Counted from the first letter of the stretch, positions 3,173-61,800 are shown. The stretch is 64,000 nt of DNA from Amoebophrya sp. A120 (GCA_905178155.1 CAJINV010000003.1:5671985-5735984), one strand, 5' to 3'. The notes: generated by a model not told the origin, from the sequence alone. Made by a program: numbers and translations.

Positions 3173-5730
3173 TAAGCTGCGGCTGCTGCTGCTGCCCCAA
3201 ACGGTTATTCTCCATTTCTTTTGTCAAGGTTGCAAAGCCCGGAGTTTTCTGTTGCAATTTATTTTCGGCTGCCATTGCACCACCGGCCAGTCCGACGTTC
3301 ATCAGTTGCTTCGCTGCCCCTTGTTATGCATTGCAAATATGTCTGGGTCCGGAGACTTGTAACGCAATTCTGTGAATGGTGGGCGCGCCGCGATTATACG
3401 CAGCCAGGCATGACTAGTTTTTGAGCTGCTATGTCTTTAGTTTTCCGCATGGCAAACTGCGTTTTTGCATCACAGACAAGAGGCTCTTTTCCTGCTCATG
3501 CTATGCATCACAAATTTAAGACTCATACCAGACCACAAGCATGAAAAACTTGCAGTCTTCCAGACCTAGACACTCTTGCATTTGATACTTGTTCCGCAAT
3601 CATGGTAGCAGTGGGTGGTGCCCCGCACGAGCCACCGGCACACGATCCTGTCAGGTCCGCGGGATAAGAACCGCACCCCAAGCCGCCTCCTCCCATGCAG
3701 GGCGTCCCGACGCATTCCAGAAAACTCTCACTTCCCAATATCAAGTCGGGAACATCATACGTTCTCTATCATCTCCAGCAAACACTATGTTTGCTTATCT
3801 ATGTAACACACCAGAATGTGAAGCAATTCCGTCGACGGCTTCTAGGGAGGATGCTTCTCTTTTCTCTCAATACAATTATCTGCAAACCGCCATGTTGCAG
3901 TGCGTCCATATGAATACTCGGTGAAAAAATAGTGTTCGGAATTGCTCCCATTGATGCGGGTAGCAGTAGGATAAAGATCCAAACGCAAGAATTTCAGTCA
4001 ACAAAACAGTGGGCATTTCTTACCTGCACTAGTAGCATGGTAGTTTCTACTGGACGAGATAGAAAGCAAACTCTGGAGGATGAAGGTAGAGAACAATATG
4101 TTCTTCACATTGATACCCGGCTCGCCACAACCGTTTCCGCCCGCCGCGGCACCTTGCAGAGACAACATGGAGTCGGCCGCTTCCTCCTCCTCGGCCATGT
4201 TCGTTTTCCCAACCGCAATCTGCGTCCTGCCGGGGACATTTTCCAGCGGTGTAGTTGAGGAACGCCTTCCTATGCATTGCAAACCTCTCAGCTGCGTCGG
4301 GACGAATAGAAGTCCTTGGAATGCGGCATTCTGATTCTTGTGCCTGTGGCTTATGCGTTGTACCAGCAGTAGGCGCAACACTCGTCAATACGACCAGTAC
4401 TAAGCTGCCAATATTAGTAAAAATATGCAAATCCATATCCAAGCAAATTTGACGAAAAGTCGACCATTTCAAACTCGACTTGCTCATGTATTCAAGGGAT
4501 TTCCGCCACATGAATTGAACAACACCAGTCTCGCACTTCTTTTCCCGAATGCGCAACATTTGCAGTACATAGCGGATCCCGAAGCGTCGGGGGAAGACGT
4601 CACACCATCTTTTACCAAAGGCGGCTGCGCCTCCGCACTTTCTGGTGCTGTCCGATCGGTTTGTTTCGCGGTGTGTGCCGTGTCATCGAGAAACGAAGCC
4701 GCGGTCTGCGCCGCGTCACCGCCTGCGGGAGTTAGTGGCGTCGCCTCCGGGCCCGGTGGCTGCGAATGCTGCGACTGAGACAGGTCCGACGGCTGCAACG
4801 TGCTCTGCGACTGCTGGTGCTGCAACGCGCCCTCCAGCTGCTCGGCGGCCTGCTGCTGACTGGCCCATGCGACAGCCTTGTCGTGCTCAATCTGAAGCCG
4901 CTGCGCTTCCCATAGGTTGTAGTTGTGAATCCCGTATTTCAACGGACAGCCCGTTTCGTAGTACTCGAACCCTTCAGCAAAAAACAGATCATCCGGCAGT
5001 GTGAGAGATTCCCCAAACTCCAACTGGCGCTGGAATCCATCCATGTACCTCAGAGAGGACGTAGAATTGCTCACGTCATTTCTTTTTTGCTTTGGCACAT
5101 CATGCGTTATGGAATACGCCGTTTCATGGCCTGGAAATACGCACACAATAAACAAGTCCTATAAAACCGAAGTTTCTCGCAATCAACGCAAAAAAAAGCC
5201 TCGTCGAATCCTTTCGTCAACATATACATAAGAATGAATGATATGTAGTAAAACCGGGTTGATGAATACAACAAATTGATGTTCTTCCTTAGTAAACAAA
5301 CTGGAACCAACATTGGTAATTTCGTATTTGTGATTTACCTGATTCGCAGCAAGCAAGCTTCAAATTTTTTCCATGTCTTGTAAACAACGCCCCCTTTTCT
5401 TTCTTTTTCTTCGTCCCCCAGCTTGTCCAGGACCACGGAAGAAAAGTGTTCAGCTCTGACCATGCAGCCATATCCCTTGGAGTGAAAACCCTCGACGACT
5501 GGGTCTGTGGCTTCGGTAGGACGCAGCTGCCCCTGAACATCAAAGCCTTCCAGCGGACTTATTTGATGTTTCTGTTGATGGGCTTCGCAAATTTCTTGGA
5601 TGTCCATCTGCTTCACTTTTTTTTGGTCCAACCAGGCTCCGGTTTTTCCGAGGTCAGGGAACACCTGAAGAGGAAAATAAAGAAAAGGAACGTCGCCCGA
5701 TATTTTCAACCATGTGATCGGCATTCGCAC
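422..5730 (-). CDS. Multi-exon hypothetical low-complexity (Q/S/A/G-rich) protein; may be more than one gene
   Basis: Series of GC-rich minus-strand exon-like ORFs (5335-5730, 4572-5050, ~4100-4270, 3588-3720, ~3040-3324, ~1950-2370, 422-~690). Removing the element at 3325-3587 joins MIAEQ to GAAKQLMNVG in frame. No domain recognised. Confidence 0.45.
3127..3194. repeat. (CTG)n/(CAG)n microsatellite encoding poly-Q on the minus strand
   Basis: Visible ctgctg run; minus-strand ORF reads QQQQPQLNQQQQQQQQQQQQQP. Confidence 0.9.
3325..3587. mobile_element. Introner-like TIR element, family A
   Basis: Left end TATGCATTGCAAATATGTCTGGGTCCGGA, right end TCCAGACCTAGACACTCTTGCATTTGATA, flanked by CTTGT/CTTGT. 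Removal restores the host frame. Confidence 0.9.
4271..4571. mobile_element. Degenerate introner-like element
   Basis: TATGCATTGCAAA ... TTTGCAGTACATA inverted termini. The direct repeat is not preserved (CTTCC/GCGGA), but removing element + 5 nt gives in-frame DASGSA-RSSTTPLENV. Confidence 0.5.
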
Positions 5731-16169: not shown

Positions 16170-18449
16170 CTATACAGGCTTTTTTGAAAATTTGCAATGC
16201 TGATACACGCAGAGTGGCAAATATTTCCATCGGGAGCTTTCCAATGCAAACACTTCCACATTCTGGGGTCGTGGGGGAGATTTTCGATACGATAGAAACA
16301 GAGGCTCGACTTGGAAGACGAGCGCTTGGCGTTCCTCGGTGTGCTATCGACTGCAAATATGTCTGGGTCTGGAAAGATTTTGAAGCTATCGACTGCAAAT
16401 TTTTGAGCTACTATATGGCTCGTATTCCGCATGGCAAACTGCGTTTCTGCATGACAGGTAAGAGGACCTTTCTTAGTGCTCATCCATCACAGATTCTCGA
16501 GTCATGTCAGACATGCATGACAAATGTAGCAAGCCTCGTCCAGACCCAGACATATCTGCACTCGATAAGTGCAGAGCACCTGATGCGTGAAATGTCCCGA
16601 CTGGAAATCTGTCAGCGTGAAGGTCTCGGTAGTTGGTTGCGCGGTCTTGCTCCAGCTCCTTCATTTTTTCGCTGTGAGTGCCTTCCTCAGCGTCGCGGTG
16701 CTGGACATGCTTCTTCATTTGGTCGATCGCGTCTTGGCGGGACGGCCGCAGGTAGATCGGTCGCCACATGCGGTGTCGCGCGCTCATCGACTCGCAGGCG
16801 AGTGTGCCCTGGAAGCAACTGAAGCACAGCGCGGCGATCGCCACTGCGAACGCCAGGTGCCCGATGGGGCTCGCGCCGATAATCTGCTTCCCCAGGTAAA
16901 CCCACACCTGCACGATCGGCTGAAACACCGTCTGCGGGTTGAGGAGGAAGACCACCGCGTGCAGCAGGAATTCGACGCTCTTCTTCACGTAGATCACCAG
17001 GTAGGCCAAGCCGGTGTAAAACGCTGTCTGCACCTTCAACGCCACGTCGTGCACGTCCATCACGTCGTTCAACACGGAGCCCTCCAGCATCTGTTCGGCA
17101 CTGTTTTTTTGCGCCGCGGCCGCCGCGTCGCTCGCGGCACGTTCCGCGGCCTCGGCCTCTTCGATCTGCTTTGCGGTTCCGAGAAAGAAGGCCTCCATGC
17201 TGCCCTCGGCAAGTTCCTCGGATGGAAAGTATAGTGCTGACAAAAATCATTGTGGTCCCCGGCTGTGAACAAAGCCCAGCATACGATATTCATATTGCAT
17301 CAGAATCCGCAGTGACGTCTAGTCACTCCTTTCTTGACAGTGCTCTTCACGAGACACACAAGACAGAGCAGAGCACGGCCGTTTTTTCTAACGCTGTTTC
17401 ACTGAACGATTTTCCAATCTCTAACGGGTTCTAGTGTACTTTGCAAAACAGGTTGATGTCACGAAAGACCCAGACGAAAGACAAGGCGAGACCAAGACCC
17501 AAAGAAATAGACACGAAGACAATGAGAAACAAACTTTGGCATGACCAATCGCTTCGTATTAGACCGGGATGATGTGGCAAATTTCCGTCTACATACTCCA
17601 TTCACACCAGACGCTTCATTGCTCGTCGAGTCGGCACTACCAACCGCGACGGAGGAGGGTGTCGCAACGGCGTTCTCCGGACCGCCTGTCGCTCCTTCTG
17701 GCACTGAATCTGTGTTTGGTGAACAAGTTGTGTCAGAGTTAGTTTATTCTTCGTGGGCCGAAACTAGAAAGAGAAACCAAAGACTTGGAGGTATTGAGGT
17801 TGTCATGCAAGTACACAAACGGAACGAACCAGCATCAGGAACCAACGCTTGCTTCCGGGAAAGGAAAACTTTAGTAAAGTTTTCCTTTCCCGACGGCAAG
17901 AGAACACTTACCTTCAGAATCATCCAGTGTGGCGGGCCCCCGCATGAAGGTGCCTTGCATTATCTGCTTCGCGCTCGGAGCAAGTTATCATCATGAAAAG
18001 TGACCCAAACTCCCTATGAAATACCGCAACTACTTGATTGTACATACTTATTCCCGTGTTCTTGCAATCTTGTCCGACCACCGTGACACGTCTTTTTACC
18101 GCAGCATGCAAATAGGCCGGAACACTCGTGGCAGCGCCCACGGAAACTAAAAGCTTCACGTTCCTCCTTCTCTGACGGTTCACAACACGCAGGGCGCAGC
18201 ACTGTCCCTTTCTCATTCTCTGTCAGGGCCCCTTCACTATAATGGTGCATAGCGCTTACAAAGTATACATGACAAGGTCCGGGACAAACGGGCCTCGGCT
18301 CCATAGGTTGTCTGGAACAAATCTCCATCGAATACGAGCAGATCCTCATCCCGCTGGGCACGAAGGCGGCGCTCTCCGGTTCTCAAAGCTCGAGAAGACG
18401 TCGCTATGAAGACCCACGTCAACCTGAGCCACCAGAAACTGCAACTCAT
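16170..18449 (-). CDS. Multi-exon hypothetical membrane protein
   Basis: Large exon 16568-17243 with hydrophobic segments (AFYTGLAYLVIYV; HLAFAVAIAALCF); possible signal-peptide exon at 18449. The frame continues across the element at 16345-16567. Confidence 0.5.
16345..16567. mobile_element. Introner-like TIR element, family A
   Basis: TATCGACTGCAAATATGTCTGGGTCTGGA ... TCCAGACCCAGACATATCTGCACTCGATA; flanks TGTGC/AGTGC. Confidence 0.88.
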
Positions 18450-19517: not shown

Positions 19518-22500
19518 TCACTCGGGATAGGAGCGCGAAGCAATATTTTCATTTTTGTAATGCTCGGCGGATGACAATGTCGTTGTGTGGCGGAAGGGCT
19601 GGAAGAGGTGGCCGTCGGCTCGGTAAAATTTTGATTGAAATTCGACCCAGTGCAGCCGAAGGGTGTGCAGGAAGCATTCGAGTGAGTCCATTGCCATCAG
19701 GACGGCACAAGTGACTGCAAACCACACAGCGAAGATATCAGAACGAAGACCGTCTCGCCTCAGAGAGTTCAAATGATAAACTGTATTCTGTTCGACGCTA
19801 TCGCCTTAGAGTTCCCTTTCTCGACCTCTCAGTCTCATGATCGCCTGCTCAGAGAGTTCATTGAAAATGCAAAAGTGTCAGTTAAGATTTTTTTGCCCCA
19901 AACGCGCACGACTGGCTCCTGTGTCTCTTATTTCATTCTCTGGGACGGTTTACTCTACTTCGATCCGGATGATAGAAGGCCACGAAAATGCTTATGCTCC
20001 GACCGACCCAGTTTCCGGCAAAGCTGGCCATGGCTACCTGCAGTGTGTACTGCAGAAAAACCTCGCTTAGCTGCGCGTGCGCGAGCGACAGGGCCCACTG
20101 CCGCAGGTATGACGCCGTGTGTGACACCGTGCCGAGCACAAACTCGATGGTCTCGATCACCTGGTGAATGATCACCTCGCCAGCGTCGAAATGAGGCTGA
20201 GCAAGCTCCTCGCTCGCCAAAGCAAGCTCCTCCTCGTCCCGGTTGGCTGCCAGGCGCCTGCATCAAAAATATTCAAGAAACAGTGCACATGAATGTCTCT
20301 GGGGACCAAGAAACCGAAATCGCAAACAAACTAAGACGATGAATGTCGGTCGGAAAACTTGCACAAGCGTAAGACTCAGCTTCGCGTTTATCACACCAAT
20401 TTACTACAACATGCGTGCTGTAGTGTGATTGCGCAAGAAGACAGAGAAAACAAAGATCGGAAGTACACTGCGACTGGGACTGCAGACGTTGACGTTGTTG
20501 CATTATTACCGCGGATACAGCCTACTTACACTTTTTGCTAAAAATGTGGCGATAGAAAACTGTGCTCTATACTCTATTCTGTGCTTCTCCCGCTTGTGTC
20601 GCAAGTAGAGCAGCGTTGGCTTGGGCACAAGAAGCACTGGCACGCAGAGAAGACAAGTCAGCATCAAATATCCTTCGTGCGCGAAAAAAACTCCGCGATT
20701 GTCATTGCCGAAGGCCAAGTTGATGAGGCAGTTGATGATCGACGGTTGCTCCGGCATAGTATGTACCCACTTCTGCAAAATCATGTAGTCCATATACCTG
20801 AAGAGAGTACAAAGACCAGTTTCGGTTCCGCGAATTATAAAAAACGCACAAACAAAATCATCCAGAAATCCATCCACGCGAAAACACGAAAAAAATGAAA
20901 AAACTCTGTACTTACCCGAAAAAGCATACTAGAAAAGTCATCATGGGCAGGCATTCAAAGAGAAAGTCAAGCGCGCTCCGGTCGTGCAGGGCGTTCGCCC
21001 AACGGAGCAGCACGCCGACGGCCATCTGCGATACACCAAATAGCACCGACAACTTCATTTTCAACGAGTGTAGTATGCAGAGAAAGATTCCGCCACGGGC
21101 CACATGGGGCTGACACTCTGGTGAAGTTGGTACTCGTTTCACCACTGCAAACTTGCATGTTGGTCCGACAGCAACATCGCAACATCACACTGCCCAGAAA
21201 TCAGACACTAGTAGCCCAAGCGATTTATTACTGCTGGCCAGTGTTCCGGACATGATTTGGCAGGGCTTCACCGCGTCCTCGGTAGCGAAAACTCTGAACT
21301 TTGGCGCTTTCATTTGCATAGTGAGAAACAGGAGTTTATTCTGCGCCACCGTCCAGGCTGGGTCGATCCCGAAAGGATAGGGGCCCGCGTAGGCGAAAGG
21401 TTTTGTTTGCGACGGGGCCGCCCCGTTCCACACATCGTAGCGTGGCACCATCGGCTCCGGCACCCGACTGCGAAGGGCACCGCGCTGCTCTTCGGGGAGC
21501 GTGTCCTTCTTTCGAAAATCCATCTTGACCGTGGTCCTGTCAGCGCTGTCTTTTGGCGCAGCCTTGCTCTCCTGTTGATCTCTTTCATTCTCCTGCCCTA
21601 CGCCGGTGCTGCGATTCTCCCCGTCCTGTTCGTGTTTTTCATCGTCCGGAAAGCCACCAGGAAATTCTGCCTCATCTACAGTTGCTGACTCGGCCATTAC
21701 TTGTTCACGTGGCAGCTTGTCCTCCGGTGACTGCTCCACTTCCGTCGTATCATGATCATTCCTCAACGGTCTTGTCTCTGCGCGCCGGTGATTGTGCCGC
21801 GGTGTCTCGTCGTCGCCGGCGGTTTTCTCACGGCTACGCATCGGAGGCGGGTGCCACTCGATGCGGACCGGGATACTACCCCCTTTGTGCTCCTTCTGCT
21901 TCACCTGGAGCAACATCGGCGGGTCAGCGTCTCGGTCATCCGCCATCGCGAGCTCGTCTTCGCTCAGAGCCTGTTTTCCGAATTCGCGCAAGTCCGCGGT
22001 TGCTTCAACCAGGGGTAGTGTCCCGTCGTTTTTCTGGTCCCAAGCGCTGCTAGGCCCGACCCGCAGCGGCTGCAGGTCGTGCGACCGCGGCAGCAGTGGT
22101 GCTGTCACGTCCTCTCGCTCGAGCGCAATGTTTCCCGGGGAAAACGTAGACCGTTTCTGCGGAAGAAGCTGCTGCATCACCGGCGCGCCGCTCCTGCTCC
22201 CGCCAAGCTCGTCGACCCGGCCGCTGCTCAAAGCGGCGGTCTTTCCGGAAGATGCAGATTGGCGAGGGCCCGCACTCATCGCAGGCTGCTCCCACCGGGA
22301 GCCGAACACGTTGGTCCCGACACCAAAAAAATCGTTGTACATCCACCCCGCGTAGAACGCGAAGACACCCATCAACAGGATCATGTAGCGGACCCGCAGC
22401 ACGGATTTCGGAAGGTTCAGCCCGCCGGCCCGATCCGCGTACACCAAGTACAGCCCGACCAGCAAGAGCAGCCCCCCATGTCCCACATCGCCGAACATCA

Positions 22501-42117: not shown

Positions 42118-45100
42118 CTATGAAGACGTGTCGATGGACAGTAGCTGCTTGTGGTTGTAGGGTTCAAACAGCTGCCCGTCGGCGTGGAAGAACTTAGACT
42201 GGAACTCGACCCAGTGCAGACGCAGCGTGTGTAGGAAGCATTCCAGAGAGTCCATGCAGAGGAGCACCGCGAAGGTGACCATCAGCCAGACTGCGAAGCC
42301 GAAGAAGACCGCCAAAGGGTTGCCGCTGGTGATGGCGCCGGCCAAGGTCTTCTGAAAGAAAACCAGCGACAGCTGCTGGTGCGCCAAACTCAAGGCCCAC
42401 ATACGCAGGTACGAAGCAGTGTGGGAGACCGTCCCCAGGACGTATTCAATCGTGAAAATGATCTGCAGTAGTTTCATTTTTTGCACACGACGACCGGGTT
42501 GCTTGTTTTCATTGCAACAAATAAACTGTGCAAGAACATCGCGCTCCTCCTTCTGGCGTTCATCTTTCTACTCAAGGAGGACAACAAGAACTACCGAGGA
42601 CCTACTTGGAGCAATGATTATTTTGGTAGACATTTGATATATACTTGTTCAATCGCCTCTTCTGAGAATGGTGGGTGTTCCTCGACTTCCTCGTGGCCCG
42701 CCTTGTCGGGCAGCGCGGCATGCTCTTCGTGGGCCTTGGATCGGTAGTAGAGCACAACCATCTTCGGAAACAGCAACCAGGGCACGGAGAGCAACGTCAT
42801 GCCGAAGAGCGCACCTTCCAACGCGATGCTGCCGTCCCACAGCGGCGCGGGGTCCGGCTGGTGCATGGCCATGCTGATCAGCGAGTTGATCAGCGAGGGC
42901 GGGTTGTCCAGCGGGGTGACCCACTTGTACATGATCATGAAGTCCATGTACCCAAAAAAGCTGAGCATGAACATCAGCATCGGAATGCACTCACAGCAGA
43001 AGTCCACGACGGACTTTTCGTAGATGGCGTTGCTCCACTTCAGAAACACCCCCACCAACATCTGCGACACGCCAAACAGCACCGCCATCTTCATCTTCAG
43101 CGAGTTCATGAACAGCAGTTCGTTTTGTGCGCCGGCCCAAGCCGGGTCAATGCCTTGGATTTTTTGTTGGGCGTACTTGTTTTTACTCCTTAGCTCGACG
43201 AACTCAGTTTGCAAAACTTCACACCGTGAAAAGCGGTTAAGTACCTTCAGGGGCGGGAGACAAAAAACAATGCACCTGAATCAAGAGTGAAGTAGCGGGT
43301 AAAAATAAAGCCTTCATACCGAACGGAACAGGTCCCGGCCCGCCTTCGTTTTTGACGTCGTACAGTGGATAGTAGTTCTGTATGGGATCTGTTTCTTTTG
43401 CGTCCGTGGCCCATTTTGTTCCGAACAGGTTCATACCCAGGGAAACAAAATCGTTGTACCTGCAAGTTGTATATGAGATGAATGTGGCTTCTTCGCCTGT
43501 CGCACTCGTCGAAGACTGGTAGCAATAAATTGAGGGATACAACGCAGCAGAAACTGATGATCCACATGCCTGCCCAGAAAGCGTGATAAATTTTTCTTCT
43601 GCGCTGCTCCTCTGGGATGAAACAAAATAGAAACACAATACAACAGGCCGGCGTAGACCGCGAAGATGCTCATGAGGAGCAGCATGAAGCGCGCACTGTA
43701 TAGCCCCGGTTGCGAGTACTGCAGGGAGCCGGCGTTGAAGCAGCACCAGAGGGCGAAGAGGAACATCAGGGTTCCGTGTCCAACATCTCCGTACATGATA
43801 CCAAAGATGAAGGGAAATGTCACCGCAGCTGTTTATTTTTGCTTGAATTAATACGGTTCTTTTCACCGCTTCTTGCCTTCGAAAACTTCTCAAAAACGTC
43901 GCGCAAGATGTCGGTGCGCGATAAAAAAGCCCGCGCTCTCGATGAATTCTCCCCAGCGTAGTAGTTGGGGAGGAAAATAAAGTCGAAATGCTACATTGCA
44001 GGAGCACTTTGCGCGATTGTTCGCCGACAGAAAAATAGCATTTTGATCTTTGTGTAGAGTACTGAACGGCACGGGACTGGCCTCTTTGTATCTCGGAACG
44101 CCGTAGGTGTTGACCAAGTCCTGGAAGGGCCCGAGGAAGTCGTTGGTTCGGAAGTAGGTGGGCGCGTTCTTCATGGACCGCGTTTTGTCGGAGATGAGGT
44201 AGGCCGTCCCATTCGCGTCGGAGTTCTTGACCAGCAGCGTGCGGATGGATTCCTCGTCCGCGGCTGGGTACCACACGTTGATGCGCAGGGTGGTCTCGCC
44301 CTCGCACTGGTTCAGAATGGCGTACACCGACTTCTCCTTCATGCAGAACAGCCGCCAGTTATTGTGAGGAAAAATATCCCCACCCCATAGTCAAGATGGG
44401 AAATCTGCAACACAAACGCGGAAGTTTTGGGAGTCACGCATGACATAAACAGACTGTGCAACTACGGGATGGCATTGTGTTTCGGGTGAGTTGATCAACC
44501 CAAAGACGCCGCCACCCCTCTGTATTGTAGTGCAGTTTCGCAAGGACAGCCGCATCGCAAAGCCATCTCCTCATCCTATTTGCAGCATCACAAATTCCAA
44601 AACACGATTGGAAATGGCTCTCATGGGGATGCGCATTACAAGTCTTCCTGTCTTTGCAAATCTGCATGACAACTCTGGGATGGGGACGCTTTTACTCAGG
44701 ATACCAGTCCTCCAGCAAACTGTTGCCGGTCTGCGTCTTCGACAGCAGGCGCGCGGACTCCCCGATCACATACGACTCGAAAGCCAGTTGGGCCTTTTTC
44801 TTATCCTGTGCAAAAGTATCGTACTCGTAGGAATTGCAGTCATGCATTACAAATCTTTTCTTTAAGGTACTTAAATCAGCATTGCAAATCTTCCTTTCTC
44901 ATGCTGAGGAAATTTGTAATGCATTTATACGAGTACGACACTTTTGCAATTCATATTTCTTGTCCGCCACCAACTGCGTCAACGCCGCCAACCGCGTGCG
45001 GGCGTCCTGCCCGGAGACTGGAGTGACGCGTTTTGGAAAGATTACAACATCGCAGGTAGAAGTTGTGGTACTACGCGTAGTTGATTTTTGTTTCAACTAT

Positions 45101-46764
45101 TCAAAAACGGGCTTCGCACAACAGACACTGTTGTAGCTAGAATATTAAATCTGCAAACATTATTCTACATGGCCATTCGTAGTTGTTCACGCCGAATTGG
45201 GCGCAGGCCTTCACAATCTTGTTGTACAGCACGCCCTCGGTGGCGCCCTTCACGTCCTGGAAGAACACCACAAACACGCTCTTCTTCACTTCCTTCCCTG
45301 TCTTGGGGTCGACGATCAGATCGCCGATGGGAGTGAAGTTGGTAAACGAGTTCCCACGCGACATGCGGAACAGGAACCGGGCAAACCGCTGCTGGTCCTC
45401 TTCGCAGATGGTCCCCGCGATGTTGGAAAACGTCATACCTATAAACGTGTCAGGTTTGCCAAAGAAAATCGGGAAAAGAAGTAGACGCAGACAACTATGA
45501 CATGTGGTAGCTGCTCTTTTACTTAGTTCTTTCTCTTTTGCGTTGTTGACGTCACTGAAAAGCATAACCACGTTTCTCAGTGACGCGCCCCGATGTTCTT
45601 TGACACTTTGATAAAAATAAAGAGCGCCAAGTACTATACCGCCTTCCACTTTGGCCGTATCCAGCAGCTGGTCCGTGGTTGCGCCTGTTCGCACCAAGGT
45701 CCCAAAGGTGCTCAGCGAAGTCTCCACCACCCATTTTTCTTCAATAGCCTGGTTACGCTCTGCAGTTTTAGGTGCAATGCAAAAGTAAGATAGGGTAGAG
45801 GCTGCGTTTTTGGATGGGTCTACTCATCTGCACCGACAAGTTTCATCAGACCCGTACGTACATGTTGATTGTGGTGAAGTAAATCTTTACATCATTCGTG
45901 AAGACGAGAATTGTTCCAGGTAAAAACAAAAACAATGACAAACACAAATAAACATTAACATTCTAAAAATAGTAAAACCAGTAATCAGAGCGGCGTTGTT
46001 CGCTTTGAAATCCACAAATTGCTTGTAAACCGCCTTCAAATCAGCTTCAACCGCGTCGAGTTTGTACTTATCAGCTTCCTCCAAAAAACCGTCAACGTCA
46101 TTCTTGTAGTACGCAAATCCGAACTTCGATACCTCCGCGATCAGGAACCTAGGCAGGTGAAAAAGAATTGCAAGAATAACGCTTTCTTTATTGCGCGTCT
46201 TCAGCTCCCGGGTTTTCCTTCATCTTCGTGTGCCAACAGTCGGTGTTTGCGCATGGCTAGCAGCAAATAAATGTTCCCTTACGGGACGATGCACAGTGGG
46301 ACATGTTGTTTATTGATTGAGGCAACAAAACAACCAAGCAAAAGAAGTAATCGGTGTATCAACTGCTCTCCAAAGAACTGCGCTTACCGCACAATGCGCT
46401 CCGCATCATCCAAGCGCTGCACGTACTTCTTGTAGGGCCGCGCAGCATTCACCTGACTCCCTTTCATATCCTGGAACTGGATTTGGGTGCCTGTATCCAT
46501 GCCAAATCTTGAGTCAAGCCAAAGACTTGCGTCAAGTCAACTAAACTTACCGCGCCACGAAGATCGATGCAACGCACCGGAAACTTCGGTTAGCGGAAGG
46601 TCGTTCTGGAAAACACCGTCAAGCGTTCCCGATTGAGGAAGATTGACTTGACTCAAGATTCGCAAATGATATCCCTTGCCAATCACGTTCATGAAGGTGG
46701 GTGCCTTTTCCGCAGGTAGCACCAGCACGCCCGGGGCCATGTCCTCCGAGCGAAGGAACCCCAT
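42118..46764 (-). CDS. ATP6V0A/VPH1: V-type H+-ATPase V0 subunit a, paralog 3 (multi-exon)
   Basis: MGFLRSEDM; [31 protein letters not shown]; TFPFIFGIMYGDVGHG; GIDPAW..NSLKMKM; [20 protein letters not shown]; [19 protein letters not shown]. Confidence 0.97.
44360..44703. mobile_element. Introner-like TIR element, family B
   Basis: TATTGTGAGGAAAAATATCCCCACCCCA ... TGGGATGGGGACGCTTTTACTCAGGATA; CCAGT/CCAGT flanks. Removal gives [13 protein letters not shown]. Confidence 0.9.
44802..44955. mobile_element. Introner-like TIR element, family C
   Basis: TATCCTGTGCAAAAGTATCGTACTCGTA ... TACGAGTACGACACTTTTGCAATTCATA; TTTCT/TTTCT flanks; internal IR ATGCATTACAAAT/ATTTGTAATGCAT. Removal gives VADKK-KAQLAFESY. 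Confidence 0.92.
46494..46671. mobile_element. Introner-like TIR element (distinct family)
   Basis: Left TATCCATGCCAAATCTTGAGTCAAGCCAA vs reverse complement of right end TATCATTTGCGAATCTTGAGTCAAGTCAA. Removal gives NVIGKG-TQIQFQD; can also be read as a GA-AG intron. Confidence 0.85.
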
Positions 46765-47385: not shown

Positions 47386-50051
47386 CTAGCTCACGGTAAG
47401 CGTGCCAATGGAAGCGAATGCCGGCGACAGACCAGTGGGAAGATCAGTTCCGAGGGCCTCATAACTGCACCCCTGCGCATGCTGTGCGTACCGGCAGTAG
47501 CACACGGTAGCCGTCAGACCTGTTTTTTCCGTTGATGATCATGCTGCGATAGACAGAACACCTCAGGCTTAGCGCAAACAGGCAGAACACAAACCATACT
47601 TTAAGCGCCAAAAAAACGAGTTGTGCTTATTGCCCTCTTCAAGCATTTTCCTGGAGGTAGAAGAATCATGATCGGGGCAAAAATCAGATGATAGTTCCGC
47701 ATAGGTCCTTACTGCTGACGAGTGTCCCAACGTTGAAGACTTTCTTCTTGTCCGAGGGTCCGGTCAGTGGCGCGTAACTTTCTGCGCTGAGGTCTGGATG
47801 TCTGAAGGCGCAGTCAGTCGAGTTGGAGATTCGAAGGAAATCGGTGGCTTGCAAATTGCTGCCCTCCACCACGACAAAGCAAACCGAGCTCGCGGTGCAC
47901 GCAAAGCTCTGCTCTTCCACTGCCGTGGGGCACGAGCCGCTGTGCGGGTCAGTCCAGCAACGGAGCGCCTGGTAAGGGATGTTTGTCGAAAACTGAATGT
48001 TGAACCTCTACTATGACCTCACTACATACGATCCTTTCCTTGCGACTTTGTCTTTGAGCCGTGGGAGATGTGATACAGCATATATACCTCCGGCTTCATG
48101 AGGTGCAGCCTGGCGTGGTTTTCCGTGCCCTGCAGGTTTTGCAGCCATATGTAGTTGAACATGTTCGCCGTGGTCATGTTCGTGTTTTTTTGCACGGCCC
48201 GGTAACTGGTAATTTCGGCCCGCAGGTCCTGCGTCAGGATTTGCAGCGCTTTTTGCTTCTCATTGAACATTTGGCGCGCTTCGAATATCCTGCGTAAAAA
48301 CGTCCCCCCCCCCCCGAGCCCTGCTGTCATGCAATTCTGCAAGCCAAAAAAATCTCTCATGCGCAGCGGCCCCACGAGGATCATCAGGGTGCTGCGCTAG
48401 CTAAACACGATGACACTATACGCGGAAACTCGTCATGCGAGAGGGCCAAAGCTTCTGAAATTCTGTATGCAAAGTTCCCATTTTGAGTCTGGGTGGGGAC
48501 GTTAGATTCACTCTGAATATCGAACACCTTTTGATTTGTCTCCACCATCGCCTCGTCGAACATGCGCTGTCGCTTGTTCGCGGCCTTCACCTCGGCGTCT
48601 TTCACTTCGAACTCGACCTGTTCAATCTCTTGCCGGATCTGTTCCGTCGCCGTTAGTTCCTCTTCGAACGCCGTGGGTAGGTCGATGGTCAACAGCTGCA
48701 AGTCGTCGAGCAGCCCGCAGTGTGCATTGCAAACACGTCCTCGGCGTCTGGAAATTGTGATGCTAAAACAAACGCACTGACTGTTCCATCGCCCATTTTC
48801 ACCACGGAAGCAAGCCTCCGCAGGCGCTGGAACGGCATTGGGTCGGGACCGCGAAAACATGGCGCGCATCTCTTCATTCCCGGATACTCATAAGTACATA
48901 AGTATTTTCATCCTTACTCTGGAAATTGTGATGCAGGAGTCCCTGCCGGTCCAAAAACGTGCATCGCATGAGCAGCAAAAGCCGCACAGTTCTTGCCAGC
49001 AGACAAGACAAATCTCATGCGAAACAGGCATGGCAGGACCCCGGCAGAACCTGATATGCTAACTCACGCATTCTAGACGACCTCACCGGGCATACAAGAC
49101 TTGCATGACAAACAGTCGCATTCTTCCAGACCCGGACACGTTTGCAGTGGGTACGCCGTCCGCCTCAATCCGCTGCGTGAGGTGGGTCTGCATCGCGGCC
49201 GATATCAGGTGGAAAAGCATGGCACTCGTACCAATTGCAGTCACGCATGACAAAGTAGACCTTTCGCAACCTACACCTTCAGGAGCATTACGAAGTCTAC
49301 TTTCCTTGATGCAAAAAATTTTTGTGATGGAAATCTTTGTACTAGTACGATACTTTTGCGATGCGTAGCCTCAATCTCCGTACGGTTGTAGAAGAATTCG
49401 AAGGCGGTCCAGTTCGCTGCCGTGTCGCGCAGCATGTTCCGCGCCGTAAGAACGTAGGCGTAGTCGTACCGGAGCCCCCAGTCGTAGTAGATCCGTAAAA
49501 TGCTCGACATGTCCTCCACGAGCCGGTACTGGTAGTTCAGGTCCAGAACTACCTCCAGTCCGTCGTACGTGCGGGCCTCCAGATGCTTGTAGGTCGACCC
49601 CGGAAACTGCACGGTCTGCTGGTCTTTGGGGTACCTGGGGGATCAGGAGGGAAAGTGCGATAGAAACGCTATTGCGAGCGGTTCTTGAGCGGCGAAAATT
49701 TCCGTGCCCCCTCTGAAATAATCAATAAAAGTGCCGCGGATCGATCAGCATTTCTTGTAATCACGGAATGCGTTTTTTGGGATGGATGCGTGCTCTTTGT
49801 TCTGTGTGATGCACTGAGTTATACGGATTGAAGCAATCCTTATACACTTTGAAGCTGTGGCCGACTCCGAGCATGTGCCGCCCCGCTGGATAGAGCTTCT
49901 CCTCGGCCACGCTTTTCGACACGCTGGAGTAGTCGAGTCCCATCTCCGTGGCCTCCAAGACGGAGAAGGAGACGGCGATTAACACGATGCCGGTTATCAA
50001 CCCGGAACAGCAGCAACACGCTGCGCAATACCTCAAAGCACTGTCGCTCAT
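47386..50051 (-). CDS. SPFH/band-7 (prohibitin/stomatin-like) membrane protein with Cys-rich C-terminal extension
   Basis: N-terminal TM (LITGIVLIAVSF), ARTYDGLEVVLDLNYQYRL, ARNMLRDTAANWTAFEFFYNRTEIEAAM, LQLLTIDLP followed by coiled coil; three exon junctions are elements. Confidence 0.85.
48286..48519. mobile_element. Introner-like TIR element, family B
   Basis: TATCCTGCGTAAAAACGTCCCC (matches the reverse complement of the 44703 end) ... GGGTGGGGACGTT..GAATA; TCGAA/TCGAA flanks. Removal gives QKVFE-ARQMF. Confidence 0.88.
48721..49153. mobile_element. Introner-like TIR element, family A (enlarged, degenerate)
   Basis: TGTGCATTGCAAACACGTC..GTCTGGA ... TCCAGACCCGGACACGTTTGCAGTGGGTA; CGCAG/CGCCG flanks. 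Removal gives IEADGG-LLDDLQ. Confidence 0.85.
49203..49367. mobile_element. Introner-like TIR element, family C
   Basis: TATCAGGTGGAAAAGCATGGCACTCGTA..AATTGCAGTCA ... TACTAGTACGATACTTTTGCGATGCGTA, similar to 44802-44955; GCCGA/GCCTC flanks. Removal gives TEIEA-AMQTH. Confidence 0.8.
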
Positions 50052-50490
50052 TGCGGACCTGCAGCACCGATTCTACGTCGCAGAGAGGCTACGTCAAGTT
50101 GCTCAGTGGACCAAAAACCGAGTGCGTTCCAGCACTAAAGGCACTTTACGCGACCGCCCAGATGTGCTCCCGCTTTACTTCTTCCAGGTGGGAGCAAGCC
50201 AGACAACGACGCCTTCATTCTTTTGAAGCGACAAACGCAGCGCGCACCGCCGTCTCTTTCACAGACCCGCCTCTCTCAGCGACCATCATAACCCAGAAAG
50301 GAAAAAAAACAAGCGAAACCCTTTCAAAGTAGTGTACAAATTCGGGCACAAGACCAGCATGTGTGAACACTAGAACCGGCGTAGCAAAGAGGCGAAAAAC
50401 ACTTTGAAACAAGCGAATATATTCATTATAACACTGTGTCGCCTATCAGGTTAAGTACTGTTCTCGAGGAGGTGGAGGATCTTCCGAAAA

Positions 50491-52089: not shown

Positions 52090-54560
52090 TTACTTTCCTT
52101 TTTTCCACCCTTTACTTGTTTTCGAACGGTCTCCTGGTCGCCCACCGAAACCTCCTCCGCCACCACCCGAGTGGCCTTTTTGATCATAGTAACTGCCGCC
52201 CCCTTTGCTACCGCCGCTACTCTTTTGGTCGTGGTAGCCGCCGCCACTCCCGCCTTTGCTGTTGTAGGATCGGCTGCTGTGCCCCCCGCTGCCTTTCTGA
52301 TCGTAGTAGCTACCGCCGCCGCCCTTGCCGCTGTTCTTTTGCTCGTAGTATCCTCCGCCGCCGCCTTTGCCCCAGTGGTTACCCCCTGTCGTGGAAATCA
52401 TAAAAGCAGCTCGAGCGTGTCATTGGCACGAGCCCTGCGCCACATGAATTAGAATCCTCTTGGAGACAGGGGCAACGGAACATCAAAAAAGCATAAAAGT
52501 ACTGCACCGGTGGCATGCAATGTAGCAAAGATACGACAATCAGAAACTGTGCGACTACTACTACTACTTGCCCGGAATACATAGATGGCGCTCCCAAAAC
52601 AAAAAGTACCTTCCCGCGAGGCGTTGCGGCTGCTCGGCCGGTACTCGTAGGAGCCACCGCCCTTGTTCCCCTTAGCACCCTTGTCCTTTGCCCGGCCGCG
52701 GTCGCTCTCAAGTGGCTGGTCGAGCCCCGAGCCCATTCCGGCGCCCGTCCACCGCTTCACCGTGGTTTGCACTTTGGCGCCCTGCATGTCCTTGGCCGAC
52801 AGCATCACATTATGGATTGCAAAAGTGTCTGGGTCTGGAAGATTGCCAGGTTTGTCATGCAGGTTTTCCATAACCCATGAGGTCTGGTATGTAGGACATA
52901 GCATGACAGATTGTGCGAAGCCTTTCCAATGCCTATCCTGCATGAGAAACTGCCTCTCGATTAGGTCAAAAGTGCACAACCTTTGGCAATCATGCAACAC
53001 AGTTTTTTGCCTTAGTCAGATTTAGCATGACGAGTTGCATTCTTCCAGACCCAGACATTTTTACATTTGATACACATTGGCCTTCGTCACATCCTTGCCG
53101 ATGTCTTCCACCGTGTAGCCCTCGGGAACCCCGCCACGATCCGGCACGTGTCCGATTAGGATGCTCTTCACCACCGACTGCACCGCGTACCGGCTGCTTA
53201 TCTGTGTTTCAGCAAGTAGCGGAAAGAAAATGGAAGGTCTTGCTCCGGCTTACATCCAGTCCAAGACCGGCCTGTGTTCGATCCAGTGCTATAGGAACGT
53301 GCGTCGTGAGATGAAACTGAGAGTACAAGTCAAAAGCCGTTGCTAAATGAAAGCAAAAATACTGCACCTTGTCCGTGTCAAATATAGCCCCGTCGGCCTG
53401 CAACAAATGCCACATTCCGACCTGCCGCGTGTCGTTTTTCCATCGCCGTTATCCACAACGAACATCGCCCTAAGACTTAAATGAAACCAAATCGTCATGC
53501 AGGAGCGCACAGCATCATGGAGAGATAGTGAGTAACGAATTTTCAAACAATTTGCTGTCAAGAAGTTGCACTTTAGTCATGTATGTTTCAGTATGAAACA
53601 GACGATAAGTAAATAAATCATGTCGTCCCGCAATTTCTATAGGAGTCCAATGCTAAGACGAGTTCGCTGGTGATAAACAGCTAGCAATCACTTGGTTGAT
53701 CTCCGCCTGGTTCTTCTCCACGGAATGTGACCGCAGAAACGCTTGAATGGTGACATCCAGCCTTCGCGATAAAACCGACCGGCGGACCTTGTACCTGCAG
53801 CCGGCGCAGTGGTAGTTTTTTCACTAAGTTTAAGCAGAGTACAATCGGTGTATTCGGTCAGTATAATTTCAACGGATCATGACAACCGGAATGACATTTC
53901 CTTGAAAAGAACAACAGGCATCTTTTTTCCTGTACTACAACAGCCATTTGCAATGTTCGCATCTCACCGCTTTGTTAACGAAATCAAAGCTGAATGTACT
54001 CATTATTCAAGTCGTCCATGACTTGCAGCAGCCGGGTGGTTTCGGCCATGCCCAAGTTCCAGGCCGGCATCAGCAAGTTGGGCGAAGGCGGCGGCAGCGG
54101 TCGGGTCCGCAGCTCCTCCAACTGGCTCGCGACGGAGCCGGGCGGGAGCGCCAGGTGCGTGGCAATGTCCTGCACCTGCGTGGCGATTTGCTGCACCGCG
54201 GGCGCGTGCTCCACGTCGGCCAGGTCCACGCTCGACCGGAGCGCGGCCCCCGCTTCGAGGCGGGCGCACTGCAGGTCCACGAGCAGTGCGTGCAGCAAGG
54301 CCTCGTTGTTTGGGGAGGATGACGAGGAGGAAGAACTGCTGCTGCTGCTGCCGAGGTAGCCCCGGTCCCGGATGAAATCCGTAACGGACGGCGCGAAGGT
54401 TGGCGCGGTGCTGGGTTCCAGCGCCAGGAGCTCGCTGATCACTTCTCGCGCCAGTGCCTCGAAATTCTCTGTGTTTGCCAGTAGCAACACCTCGTGTTTT
54501 TGCAGGGCGTTCGTCGGCCGCCCATTCCAGTGCTCGTACCGCGTATGCAACGAAACTCTG
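52090..54560 (-). CDS. FAM98: FAM98-family protein (DUF2465) with Gly/Tyr-rich C-terminal tail; 5' end not located
   Basis: Spliced reading gives LNNEYKVRRSVLSRRLDVTIQAFLRS and VVKSILIGHVPDRGGVP, matching FAM98 signatures (EY..RR..L..RLDVT.Q.F and KVL.G.VPDRGG.P), then a G-rich tail. Confidence 0.85.
52811..53072. mobile_element. Introner-like TIR element, family A
   Basis: TATGGATTGCAAAAGTGTCTGGGTCTGGA ... TCCAGACCCAGACATTTTTACATTTGATA; CACAT/CACAT flanks. Removal gives DVTKANV-MLSAKD. Confidence 0.93.
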
Positions 54561-55516: not shown

Positions 55517-55755
55517 GGCCCCGGACCACCGCGACCCCGGACCACCGGCACCCCCCGGATCACCGGGACCCCCCGGACCACCGGGACCCCCCGGACGACC
55601 GGGACCCCCTGGACCACCGGGACTCCCCGGACCACCGGGACCCCCGGGAACACCGGACCTCCGGGAGCCCCCGGGGCCCGCCGGATCCCCCGAAGCGGCG
55701 GGAAACCAGGGCCCCGGGCCGCGGCGAAACCGGATCGCCGGGCCCCCGCGGACCC
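55517..55755. repeat. GC-rich 9-bp minisatellite (GGACCACCG/GGACCCCCC), collagen-like Gly-Pro-Pro in one frame
   Basis: ccccggaccaccgggacccc repeats; plus-strand frame reads [29 protein letters not shown], then shifts frame near 55655. Confidence 0.85.
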
Positions 55756-58877: not shown

Positions 58878-61800
58878 ATGGACATGAAAAAGAACAACGC
58901 GAATGAAGACGGGCGGCTGGTGGAGGTCTTCGGAAGCGTCGATGCGGGTCCGGTGCGCACGCTCACGGTAGTGAGCACGCCAGTGGAGCTTCCGCCCGCC
59001 GAGGACCCGCCGTCCGCGACGGCTGCGAGCAGCTCTCGGGTAGTTTCCGACCGGCAGAAAGTGGTGCAGTTCGAGTCCTCGTCGGGCATCGTCATCCAAA
59101 ACGGCCTCGCGACTGTCCCCACGACCTCGACGTCGGCCAGCAGCGCGCCCGGTGTCGCAAGAAGCTCCTCCGAGGCATCTTCCATCTCCTCCAGCACTGC
59201 TCTGGTGCCCGGCCGAGGAAAAGCCGAACAACATGTGGTAGAAGGAGCACCAACGTCCACGCGACCGTCTTCGCCGCAACCAATATCCTCGGCGTCCGCG
59301 GGGGGCAGTAAGAAACTCGCGTCCGAGCTTGCGCCACCGGTCGCCGCGACAGTGTACGGGGTTCCGGTCGCGAACGCAGAGGAGCTCGATTTGCGAGGGC
59401 AGACGGCCGACGGGGTACTCGCACCTACCCCGATTGCTGCCGGTCTCGTCACCAGCCCACCCAGTACCACCTCCCCGGACCCGGGGTCCACCTACGGTGG
59501 CTCCCCTCTTATCAAGCGCGAGCTATTTCCGCCGGACACCTTGAACTCCGCGGCACCGCAAACCCGCACGGACGGGACGCTCGGACCGCACGCAACCGCG
59601 CTGGCTATCGACGGCGAGGAGGACCGGCAAACCATCACCGGTGAAGTAGTAAACGGCGATACAACTACCGGCGTGCGCGCTGCAGTTGCGCGATACTACC
59701 GCTGGGCCCGCGCCAAAGTGATGGGGCGCGACACCACCGGCTCCGTTCCCGAGGAATACGGGCTGCGACAGGTCGATGACTACTCCGGCCGAAGTCCCGA
59801 GCCGCCGGGCGAGCACGAAGCTTTCGGTTTGCTCGAGGCAAACACCAAGCGCAGCAGCAGCCTCGAAGACCGGCTCAGCGACGAGGAGAACAAGGGCGCC
59901 TCGCCACAGCTGACCATTCGCCTGGTGGCCGCCTGTTTGTTTCAGCTGCCGATGGGCATCATATGGAGCACCATTGGGCTCATCGTTTTGCCCTACGAGG
60001 CGGAAAAGTTCTACCCGAAGGCGCACTCCGGCTTTCTCGGCGTACTGCTCACGATCGCGGGCACGAGTCAGGTGATATCGCCGATCATCGGTCGCCTGTC
60101 CGATGACCACCGATCCATCTTCGGGCGACGCCGCCCCTTCATGATCTACGGGACGCTCCTGACTGCCATCGGGGTAGGGGGGCTCAGCTACTGCTCCGCA
60201 CACGTCTTGGTGATCATGTATGCAGTGTCGCTCTTCGTCTCGCAGGTACTTACTCCTCCTCCTTCTGATATCGGTGGTTGTTGAGTAGAGCACTTCTTTC
60301 TTTTCAGGTGGGACTGTGAATAGTTTTTCTCTAGTACTTCATCGTCCCTGCAAATTCTCACTGTCGAGGATTTTTCTCACGAACGCTGCACGACCTCTGC
60401 TAAATTTCGCACAGGTGGGACTGAACGTGATCTATTCCGCTACGGTGCTTGGGCTGGTGCCCGACACGCTGGAGGCGCAGGGGCTGGGTACCAACAACGC
60501 GTCAGCCAGTGGGATAATTGCCATTTTTCAGTTTTTGGGGAACTTACTCGGGATGTTGTTCATGATGGGCACCGCAACGATGGCCATGGAAAACGTGTAT
60601 CCATTTTACCTCGTGTCCGTGCTTTTTACCGCCGCCGTCGTCTGGATCTGCTGTCCCGAAGAAAGCAGTCTGGTACATCGTGAAGCTAGTTTTTATGTTT
60701 TCGCTCTTCATTCCATCAAAACCCTTTGGGTCAACATGCCAATACCAGAAGCTGTTTCTACTTGCGTTCTGTATACAAAAAGTCACTGCGCCTGCTGCGA
60801 CGAGCCGACTGGGGCAGTATCATCTAGGTGAAAACGTGCATCGTCTAAGTACTTACCGCTACAACTTTGTAAACTTTTTTTGGTTCTTTCTCGTAAAAAA
60901 AATTCCCCCTTTGTCCCTTAATCCAACAGGGCCGCAAGCGGACCCGGAAAGACGACGGTGGTGGCGCGGCCTTCTACAAGGCCCTTTTGTTCGACGCTAG
61001 CAAGGAGCCGGATTTTTTCTGGGTGTTCGTGGGACGCACGCTGTACTACTTGAGCATAAGTTGCCTCTCCTTCATTTACTACTTCGTACGCGACGTGGGG
61101 GGAGTGTCCGACGAAACGACACGGAAGTTCTACGTCGCGCTTATGACCTGCTCAAACGTTACAATCTCAAACGTTACTATAGAATCTGAGACTTGTCTTG
61201 CATGATCAACATGACCGACTCGGACAGCGTTCCACTTTTTGCAATACAAATTTCGCCAGATTGTAGTGCGGATTGGGACTCCAGAACTTGTCATGCGCAA
61301 TCCTGTGGGAGTAGGGTAGATCATGCGCTTCTTGCAACACAAATTCCAGACTCTATTGTAACGTTTGAGATTGTAACACCTGACCGGGTTATAGCGCTCA
61401 TCGTCGTCTGCGCACAGAGCACCGGCGCGCTTACCGCCTACCCGGCCGGGGTCTTGTCAGATTCCGTGGGCAGGAAACGACTTGTGTACAGTGAATTTGA
61501 ACAATAAGATTTTATTCTGGATGGTTTATATAGACAATACGTAACTGTGACTCCTGCTAGCAGCTGTATTGCTATTATGCACGATGAAATCGCAACAAGA
61601 TATTCATGAACACAGGTACCTGTCCTGCGTTATGATGGCGCTGTGCTACTTTTGGTACTTGCTGATACCATACCTGCCACGCATCGGCTCTCTGCACTTG
61701 CTGCTACTTGGATCGTGCATATACGGAATTGCAGCGGGATGCTACATGAGTGTCGATTACGCACTCGCGCTGGACTGCCTACCCGACAAAAGCTCCAAGG

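What the first reader, a model, noticed from the sequence alone, without database searches (positions are those of the whole stretch)
3325..61393. A multi-family system of transposon-like non-canonical introns (TAT...ATA termini, 5-bp duplication) inside conserved exons
Seen in sequence: 19 elements (3325, 4271, 16345, 19736, 21074, 23715, 27415, 29510, 34979, 38379, 40815, 44360, 44802, 46494, 48286, 48721, 49203, 52811, 61142), 154-433 bp long, all within coding sequence. Nearly all start TAT and end ATA, with ~10-35 bp terminal inverted repeats; 8 have a perfect 5-bp flanking duplication and most others are 1-2 mismatches off. Deleting element + 5 nt restores the frame each time, often inside recognisable motifs (GHG|L, LLEDW|R, SLKMK, RVNF|LLW). 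Sliding the junction across the duplication gives a GC-AG or GA-AG intron for only two copies (38379, 46494) and GT-AG for none. Established: IR/DR-bounded non-canonical introners are reported from Amoebophrya. Inference: at least 8 unrelated TIR families share one terminal grammar, implying one mobilising machinery and one precise excision route, at RNA or possibly DNA level.
Basis: partly seen in the sequence, partly recalled or inferred. Interest (0 to 1): 0.92.

Follow-up and report, generated by a model that had tools for sequence, protein, structure and literature searches.

The report
Transposon introns cut without GT-AG
These inserts are the already published transposon-like introns of the plankton parasite Amoebophrya A120; they are missing from its spliced transcripts, the junctions that can be read fit one fixed cut position, and three conserved bases suggest they are likely removed by a loosened ordinary splicing machine, which can be tested directly.

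Summary
Observation confirmed; class already published. The window is Amoebophrya sp. A120 (an exon is 100% identical to a protein so named). Farhat 2021 describes these TAT-ended, 5-bp-repeat introner elements. All 19 starts are real (one end corrected) and I found 5 more.

Spliced transcript contigs from one sample lack element+5 nt at 11 sites (6 listed, 5 new); a model reproduces three contig lengths exactly. For the 10 sites with a readable junction, only one register fits all: intron = N-TAT...ATA-NNNN. It is pinned exactly at two sites.

Terminal variants are strand-asymmetric: 14 of 14 fall at +4, -6 or -5 and none at U+2, A+3 or A-7 (8 of 8 in separate loci, P=0.004). Ten of the 14 break pairing. 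All 13 GT-AG introns checked also start GTA. Best reading: spliceosomal removal with relaxed G+1 and AG and a branch A at -7 (inferred, 0.55). A Euglena-like non-spliceosomal route is the rival; DNA excision is unlikely.

I found no such rule in the papers read, but this scan reported the fixed register and conserved UA/A-7 before, on other windows. No transposase was tested here.

The parts
3325..3587 (-). element, family 1, perfect 5-bp repeat; host gene inferred on - strand
   Evidence: no RNA lay
4271..4571 (-). element, singleton; flanks share 0 of 5 bases
   Evidence: frame opens on removing +5; no RNA lay
16345..16567 (-). element, family 1, 4/5 repeat
   Evidence: no RNA lay
19736..19974 (-). 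element in V-ATPase a gene; weak inverted repeat; removed in RNA (244 = 239+5)
   Evidence: joint 19730>19975; registers 1-5 allowed
21074..21320 (-). element in V-ATPase a gene; junction pinned exactly at register 4+1
   Evidence: joint 21069>21322, no ambiguity; only this register gives the Asn found in 119 of 120 homologues
23715..24014 (-). element, 300 nt, 4/5 repeat; removed in RNA; excludes 5+0
   Evidence: piece start 24016, plus contig lengths
24069..24289 (-). unlisted element (gene orientation TAC...ATA); removed in X3-X5, retained in one low-depth X6 contig
   Evidence: pieces; lengths
24380..24528 (-). unlisted element (TAT...ATG); removed in RNA; registers 4-5
   Evidence: pieces 24374|24529
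24892..25211 (-). unlisted element; removed in RNA (325 = 320+5); registers 3-5
   Evidence: pieces 24886|25212
27415..27667 (-). element, family 1, perfect repeat; removed in RNA (258 = 253+5)
   Evidence: joint 27409>27668
27760..27987 (-). unlisted element (TAT...ACA); removed in RNA (233 = 228+5); registers 2-5
   Evidence: joint 27754>27988
28032..28247 (-). unlisted element; removed in RNA (221 = 216+5); registers 2-4
   Evidence: joint 28027>28249
29510..29786 (-). element in channel-like gene; junction pinned exactly at register 4+1
   Evidence: joint 29505>29788, no ambiguity
34979..35209 (-). element in OGFOD2-like gene; removed in RNA (236 = 231+5), present in DNA contigs; registers 3-6
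   Evidence: pieces (X3, X6; X1)
38379..38629 (-). element, family 1, perfect repeat, in V-ATPase a gene (P0001)
   Evidence: public protein reads through; model matches the 573-nt contig gap
40815..41066 (-). element, family 1, 4/5 repeat
   Evidence: P0001 reads through; RNA joint not shown
44360..44703 (-). element, perfect repeat
   Evidence: RNA joint not shown
44802..44955 (-). element, family 2, perfect repeat
   Evidence: RNA joint not shown
46494..46671 (-). element, 2/5 repeat; spanned by one DNA contig
48286..48519 (-). element, perfect repeat
48721..49153 (-). element, family-1-related (gene orientation TAC...ACA), 4/5 repeat
49203..49367 (-). element related to 44802 (gene orientation TAC...ATA); spanned by one DNA contig
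52811..53072 (-). element, family 1, perfect repeat
61142..61393 (+). element, perfect repeat, long inverted repeat; host gene inferred on + strand

Best explanation
These are non-coding DNA-transposon-like inserts of Amoebophrya A120 with a 5-bp target duplication that are absent, together with 5 nt of the duplication, from spliced transcripts at every site where the RNA result could be seen, and they are likely removed by the cell's U2-type spliceosome at one fixed register set by their own ends. SHOWN: presence in DNA contigs and absence from transcript contigs; removal length = element+5; the only register common to 10 readable junctions keeps bases 1-4 of the upstream copy and base 5 of the downstream copy, so the intron reads N-TAT...ATA-NNNN; no G at +1 and no AG are needed; one family sits in both orientations in genes. 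INFERRED: U+2 and A+3 are read as in the genome's GT-AG introns (13 of 13 start GTA), the invariant A at -7 is the branch nucleotide, and the 3' cut falls a fixed distance after it. The symmetric ends supply these signals in either orientation, so any exonic insertion becomes an intron. The inverted repeat may help bring the ends together in young copies (U1 was not detected in A120, PMC7789003) but is predicted to be dispensable in old ones. INFERRED and untested here: spread by a cut-and-paste transposase in trans (hAT-like, 5-bp duplication) binding the shared internal motif.
For: Joints and pieces. A model removing six elements (+5 each) and four GT-AG introns gives 3510, 3713 and 3759 nt, equal to the X3, X4 and X5 contig spans, and a 1200-codon frame; keeping any one element, or removing it without the 5 nt, truncates it to 82-1143 codons. 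Register intersection = 4 only. Predictions for 21074, 29510, 28032, 19736 and 24892 were written in the same turn as the lay, before its output, and all five held. Terminal variants in gene orientation: window 6 of 6 (24 elements) and loci 8 of 8 (179 oriented elements) at +4, -6 or -5, none at +2, +3 or -7; P=0.004 for the loci alone. Ten of the 14 break terminal pairing, and both T>C and A>G occur, so a simple strand mutation bias does not explain it. 13 of 13 RNA-confirmed GT-AG introns start GTA. Six of 10 RNA-confirmed elements folded have near-zero predicted in-register pairing over positions 4-30 (0.00-0.05). Family 1 is 34 same and 39 opposite in orientation relative to a reference copy. 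Farhat et al. found 83 of 89 spliceosomal proteins and U2, U4, U5, U6 in A120.
Against: No lariat, branch point or inhibitor data: the spliceosome step rests on base conservation alone. A branch A only 7 nt from the cut, with no AG and any base at +1, departs from textbook chemistry (recalled). A at -7 is not significantly enriched in the GT-AG introns (6 of 13). In the window, G-U pairs outnumber A-C mismatches at positions 9-30 (49 vs 27, 23 elements), which leans towards a pairing role, though the loci show no excess (127 vs 149, 201 elements). The asymmetry rests on 14 variants; 6 further variants could not be oriented, and strand calls for the loci come from my codon model (23 of 23 right on window elements by region, partly trained on them; 14 local/regional conflicts among 297). 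All four RNA runs are one sample, are only guessed to be RNA by their record, and are contigs, which drop rare junctions. Only two sites pin the register exactly.
Confidence: 0.55

Rival explanations
1. RNA-level removal at the same fixed register, but by a non-spliceosomal nuclease/ligase that recognises the element's ends or hairpin, as proposed for euglenid nonconventional introns.
For: No G+1 or AG is required. The geometry resembles Euglena's N3CDG...CH'GN5-6|R rule, with a short 5' and a longer 3' overhang around inverted ends (PMC12501133). U1 was not detected in A120. G-U excess in window elements.
Against: Tolerated terminal variants mostly break pairing (10 of 14), whereas the Euglena paper concludes the inverted repeats matter. 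The invariant U+2/A+3 match the genome's own GTA donors. Several spliced copies have no predicted terminal stem.
Confidence: 0.33
2. Precise DNA-level excision in a life stage or in a share of nuclei, so that transcripts come from element-free templates.
For: Transposon anatomy (inverted ends, 5-bp duplication). X1's joint table was saturated by repeats and contigs drop rare variants, so rare empty sites would be missed.
Against: X1 DNA contigs run from flank into element at depth 41-46 and span 46494 and 49203 whole (X1 may be the source of the assembly). An X6 transcript contig keeps 24069 while both neighbours are removed, and transcript contigs carry family-1 ends with other flanks. A cut register and base constraint tied to the direction of transcription are not expected of DNA excision.
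Confidence: 0.04
3. Junctions are variable, or use cryptic GT-AG/GC-AG sites, and the common register is chance.
For: [quoted passage not shown] Eight of the 10 sites allow more than one register.
Against: All 11 removals equal element+5; two sites are exact at register 4, four exclude 5 and three exclude 3 or less. No GT-AG arises at any register of the 19.
Confidence: 0.05

Closest known systems
Introner elements among the non-canonical introns of Amoebophrya sp. A120 (Farhat et al. 2021, PMC7789003; also Gozashti et al. 2025, PMC12130899)
   Same: Same organism. Start TAT + 7 variable bases + AAA; inverted and 3-5-nt direct repeats (5 bp in the Fig S19 legend); about 240 nt; many families; RNA-supported; MITE-like; mechanism open.
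   Different: The paper leaves the border position unknown or variable and sees no splice signature. Here one register (N-TAT...ATA-NNNN) and strand-specific invariance of U+2, A+3, A-7 are found. Figures were not visible to me.
Euglenid nonconventional introns (Nomura et al. 2025, PMC12501133; review PMC11282704)
   Same: No GT-AG; inverted ends at fixed offsets from the junctions; direct repeats that make junctions slidable; coexistence with GT-AG introns; proposed transposon origin.
   Different: Offsets are 3 and 5-6 nt with CAG/CTG and a purine after the 3' cut, against 1 and 4 nt with TAT/ATA and no such purine rule here. Euglena introns are proposed to be non-spliceosomal and can form circles.
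Fritillaria borealis non-canonical introns (passages in PMC11282704 and PMC13326754)
   Same: Transposon-derived, with inverted repeats and target duplications; non-GT-AG; a conserved U2-type spliceosome is implicated.
   Different: Mostly AG-AC/AG-AT ends and a conserved U1; here the terminal dinucleotides are free apart from U+2.
Polarella/Symbiodinium introner-like elements (bioRxiv 10.1101/2020.10.14.339549)
   Same: Dinoflagellate TIR elements that create introns, some in either orientation, with classes of 3-8-nt duplication.
   Different: They recruit GT/GC/GA and AG from the duplication or the element; A120 elements need neither.
hAT5 transposons (5-bp duplication; passage in PMC12730594)
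   Same: 5-bp duplication, short inverted ends; a repeated internal motif is typical of hAT elements (recalled).
   Different: No transposase was found or tested here; membership is not shown.

Membership tests
Amoebophrya A120 introner elements | Located in the A120 genome | tested here: met
   Exon 37241-37903 is 100% identical to P0001, named Amoebophrya sp. A120 by its source; the next hit is A25 at 76%
Amoebophrya A120 introner elements | RNA-supported intron with non-GT-AG ends | tested here: met
   11 elements absent from transcript contigs; no GT-AG at any register. 11 of the 19 listed remain untested
Amoebophrya A120 introner elements | Ends TAT + 7 variable + AAA | tested here: met
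   46 window ends: T 46, A 44, T 43 at positions 1-3; A 39, 40, 36 at 11-13
Amoebophrya A120 introner elements | 8-20-nt inverted repeats and 3-5-nt direct repeats | tested here: met
   weak in 19736, 21074, 23715, 29510; no direct repeat at 4271
Amoebophrya A120 introner elements | Repeated, in families | tested here: met
   7 family-1 copies in the window; 11 of 23 elements hit the fetched loci; 13 of 24 are singletons by interior
U2-type spliceosomal introns | GT/GC donor and AG acceptor | tested here: not met
   +1 is C, G or T in RNA-confirmed copies; the last two bases vary
U2-type spliceosomal introns | U at +2 and a branch adenosine | tested here: inconclusive
   U+2, A+3 and A-7 are invariant, but branching is not shown
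U2-type spliceosomal introns | Lariat intermediate, dependence on U2/U6 | not testable with these tools
   No raw reads of this strain laid on exons (X9: 12 partial reads)
Euglenid nonconventional introns | N3CDG...CH'GN5-6|R signature | tested here: not met
   Signature here is N-TAY...AYR-N4, with one AGA variant
Euglenid nonconventional introns | Terminal pairing required | tested here: inconclusive
   Variants mostly break pairing and old copies lack a predicted stem; G-U excess in the window but not in the loci
MITE / TIR DNA transposon | Fixed-length target duplication | tested here: met
   Window: 8 perfect 5-bp repeats vs 0.03 in shuffles. Loci: 246 of 297 perfect, but candidates were selected for at least 4/5 at 5 bp, so this count is not a test of length
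MITE / TIR DNA transposon | Cognate autonomous transposase | not tested
   No genome held; candidates exist only in unchecked earlier notes
hAT5 | hAT-type transposase in a copy with these ends | not tested
   Only the 5-bp duplication matches

The most novel reading that the evidence does not exclude
A120 runs a spliceosome without U1, G+1 or AG for most of its introns: it reads only N-U-A at the 5' end and one branch A, and cuts exactly 7 nt on from it. Because the transposon's TAT...ATA ends carry these three bases on both strands, any insertion anywhere in an exon, in either orientation, is born as a perfect intron, with no need for a proto-splice site.
Probability: 0.4. Interest if true: 0.85.

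Novelty: already known. Interest (0 to 1): 0.5.

Why it matters
The intron class is published, but how more than 60% of A120's introns are removed without GT-AG or a detectable U1 is an open question (PMC7789003). A fixed register and three strand-specific invariant bases turn it into a sharp test: lariats branching at A-7 or not. If spliceosomal, this would be an extreme relaxation of splice-site chemistry and would explain how a transposon can create introns at any exonic site. The rule would also let A120 gene models be corrected to the base, including codons that straddle the duplication.

Tried and rejected
No whole genome is held, so no genome-wide count or transposase search was possible. 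No RNA holder is listed as such on record; X3-X6 are treated as cDNA because their contigs skip 13 GT-AG introns. The raw-read RNA run X9 laid only 12 partial reads, on repeats, and is uninformative. In one search the DNA run crowded out the joint table, so 8 listed elements inside that stretch, and 38379, have no visible joint. The family-1 end pattern found 0 matches in viral contigs. My GT-AG intron predictor recovered 1 of 13 known introns, so its output was dropped. A at -7 in GT-AG introns: 6 of 13, not significant. G-U versus A-C asymmetry gave conflicting results. Ten further window candidates (1085, 1308, 2399, 2826, 16003, 17986, 47003, 53638, 54544, 55803) had negative codon scores after joining; the eight from the profile scan scored within the shuffle range; none was accepted. 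A first length search for 37905-39329 gave no solution because of an edge error. The corrected one gave 6 solutions with the element removed (1 matching P0001) and 18 with GTA-AG introns only (0 matching), so length alone is not proof for 38379. End 23993 for 23715 was rejected (stop codon; RNA gives 24014). Roy et al. 2023 (Curr Biol) is not held; its preprint was read in passages instead. Literature searches listed no paper giving an A120 junction register; subscription journals and the figures of PMC7789003 (Fig 3, S19-S25) could not be seen and may bear on this.
Full report
OBSERVATION. All 19 starts are in the window, and each pairs with an end 154-433 nt away. Seventeen read TAT...ATA exactly. 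Eight have a perfect 5-bp flanking repeat, six have one mismatch, one has two, three have three, and 4271 has none left. TAT...ATA pairs with a perfect repeat and at least 15/30 terminal complementarity number 8, against 0.03 on average in 30 dinucleotide shuffles. No register gives GT-AG; GC-AG arises only at 38379 and GA-AG only at 46494 among the 19. BLAST groups the 19 into one family of 7, one pair and 10 singles (run with a provisional end for 23715).

ORGANISM AND PRIOR KNOWLEDGE. An exon at 37241-37903 is 100% identical to a protein its source names Amoebophrya sp. A120. That protein reads through elements 38379 and 40815, so the public model already splices them. Farhat et al. 2021 (PMC7789003; I read the abstract, sections 10, 11, 12, 16 and 32, and supplement legends; figures not visible) report that more than 60% of A120 introns are non-canonical. 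They count 29,850 repeated ones in 1,954 families, with ends starting TAT, seven variable bases and AAA, direct repeats of 3-5 nt, no detected U1 and no transposase in A120. They state that the border position is unknown.

RNA TEST. Runs X3-X6 are one sample and are only guessed to be RNA by their record, but their contigs skip 13 GT-AG introns. In 19400-30100 they skip 19736 (244 nt), 21074 (252), 27415 (258), 29510 (282) and two unlisted elements, 27760 (233) and 28032 (221); each skip equals element+5 (15 of 22 joints shown). Contig pieces add 23715 (true end 24014) and three more unlisted elements (24069, 24380, 24892). A model that removes six elements (+5) and four GT-AG introns from the first V-ATPase gene gives 3510, 3713 and 3759 nt, the spans of the X3, X4 and X5 contigs, and a 1200-codon frame; retaining any element or omitting the 5 nt truncates it. 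In one search, X3 and X6 skip 34979 (236 nt), while DNA contigs of X1 contain it. In total 11 removals are seen: 6 of the 19 listed and 5 new. Of the other 13, 38379 has indirect support, 40815 has the public protein only, and 11 are untested.

JUNCTION REGISTER. Where the two 5-bp copies differ, the transcript shows which bases are kept. At 21074 and 29510 there is no ambiguity: bases 1-4 of the upstream copy and base 5 of the downstream copy are kept. Across 10 sites the allowed registers are 1-5, 4, up to 4, 4-5, 3-5, 0-5, 2-5, 2-4, 4 and 3-6; only 4 is common. I wrote this rule down in the same turn as the lay, before its output, because only it gives the Asn found before S.KMK in 119 of 120 homologues. 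The intron is thus N-TAT...ATA-NNNN. Its first base is C, G or T in confirmed copies and its last two bases vary.

WHICH BASES MATTER. A pattern scan returned 130 loci (380 kb; the 80 listed come from one other assembly, strain relation unknown). They gave 297 candidates, 273 of them TAT...ATA. I kept 263 by a stated rule, 179 with a strand call. All 8 terminal variants lie at +4 (2), -6 (3) or -5 (3), none at +2, +3 or -7 (P=0.004); the window's 6 variants follow the same pattern. Six variants could not be oriented. Ten of the 14 break pairing between the ends, and four keep a G-U pair. All 13 confirmed GT-AG introns begin GTA, so both classes share U+2 and A+3. Six of 10 confirmed elements folded show almost no predicted in-register stem. 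G-U pairs exceed A-C mismatches in the window (49 vs 27) but not in the loci (127 vs 149). Family 1 occurs in both orientations in genes (34 vs 39).

MECHANISM. Removal is at RNA level with high probability. The elements sit in DNA contigs at even depth, one transcript contig keeps 24069 while its neighbours are gone, and the register follows the direction of transcription. I favour a U2-type spliceosome that has relaxed G+1 and AG, reads U+2 and A+3, branches at A-7 and cuts at a fixed distance (0.55). This step is inferred from conservation only; A-7 is not significantly enriched in GT-AG introns (6 of 13). The main rival is a Euglena-like non-spliceosomal route (0.33). For mobility, the 5-bp duplication and a shared internal motif (272 of 308 elements, 23 of 34 clusters; chosen after seeing the data and prompted by earlier notes) fit one transposase family acting in trans. 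hAT5 elements make 5-bp duplications (passage), but no transposase was tested here.

COMPARISON. It is a member of the A120 introner class. It works most like Fritillaria's transposon-derived introns if spliceosomal, or like euglenid nonconventional introns if not (passages of PMC11282704, PMC13326754 and PMC12501133), and it fails the defining end motifs of both. Polarella and Symbiodinium elements still recruit G-H and AG (passages). Gozashti 2025 assigns A120 introners to several transposon kinds (passages). Another Amoebophrya has U1 and mostly GT-AG introns (passages of PMC12005148).

NOVELTY. The class is already known. The register and the strand-specific invariance were not in the sections I read or in five searches. 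This scan's unchecked notes report a fixed register (e1-10671409, e1-10626068) and a conserved UA and A-7 (e1-10589777) on other windows of this genome. I reached the register before and saw the window's asymmetry; the test on the loci came after. Interest 0.5: known system, but with a concrete rule that makes its open splicing question testable.

Noticed in passing
window 19500-25560, 36700-41120, 42100-46770 (- strand): Three V-type ATPase subunit a paralogues (PF01496) in one window; the first is long (about 1200 codons in my model) and carries six elements.
   Followed up: partly
window 24069-24289: A low-depth X6 contig retains this element while both neighbouring elements are removed; it may be a splicing intermediate of a slowly removed copy with a TAC start.
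   Followed up: partly
window 21070-21321: This exact intron reads GT...AG on the antisense strand, so a strand-blind aligner could count it as canonical; this may inflate the published share of canonical introns with repeats.
   Followed up: no
elements in the window and in L001-L130: Internal motif TGYSATGC, leaning inward from each end (537 vs 288 hits): 34 hits in 5,993 element bases vs 7 in 58,007 other window bases; 11 of 22 singleton elements vs 0.8 shuffled; absent from 12 of 24 window elements. Motif chosen after seeing the data.
   Followed up: partly
window 4271-4571: Clear TAT...ATA element whose flanks share none of 5 bases, yet removing element+5 opens a frame; it would be a third site that pins the register if RNA were laid.
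   Followed up: no
window 19561: All four transcript runs show the same 255+ nt loose end before 19561, whose printed letters resemble sequence near 19350; possibly an unshown joint in the 3' end of the gene.
   Followed up: no
L012:2441-2881: A different inverted-repeat element (CATG ends, 23/27 complementarity, 4/5 flanks), outside coding-like sequence.
   Followed up: no
window 55516-55714: 9-bp-period GC-rich repeat, collagen-like or proline-rich coding.
   Followed up: no
window 26500-30300, 34300-36000, 50490-51530: Channel-like gene (Ion_trans, below Pfam cut-off), OGFOD2-like gene and lysine methyltransferase-like gene.
   Followed up: no
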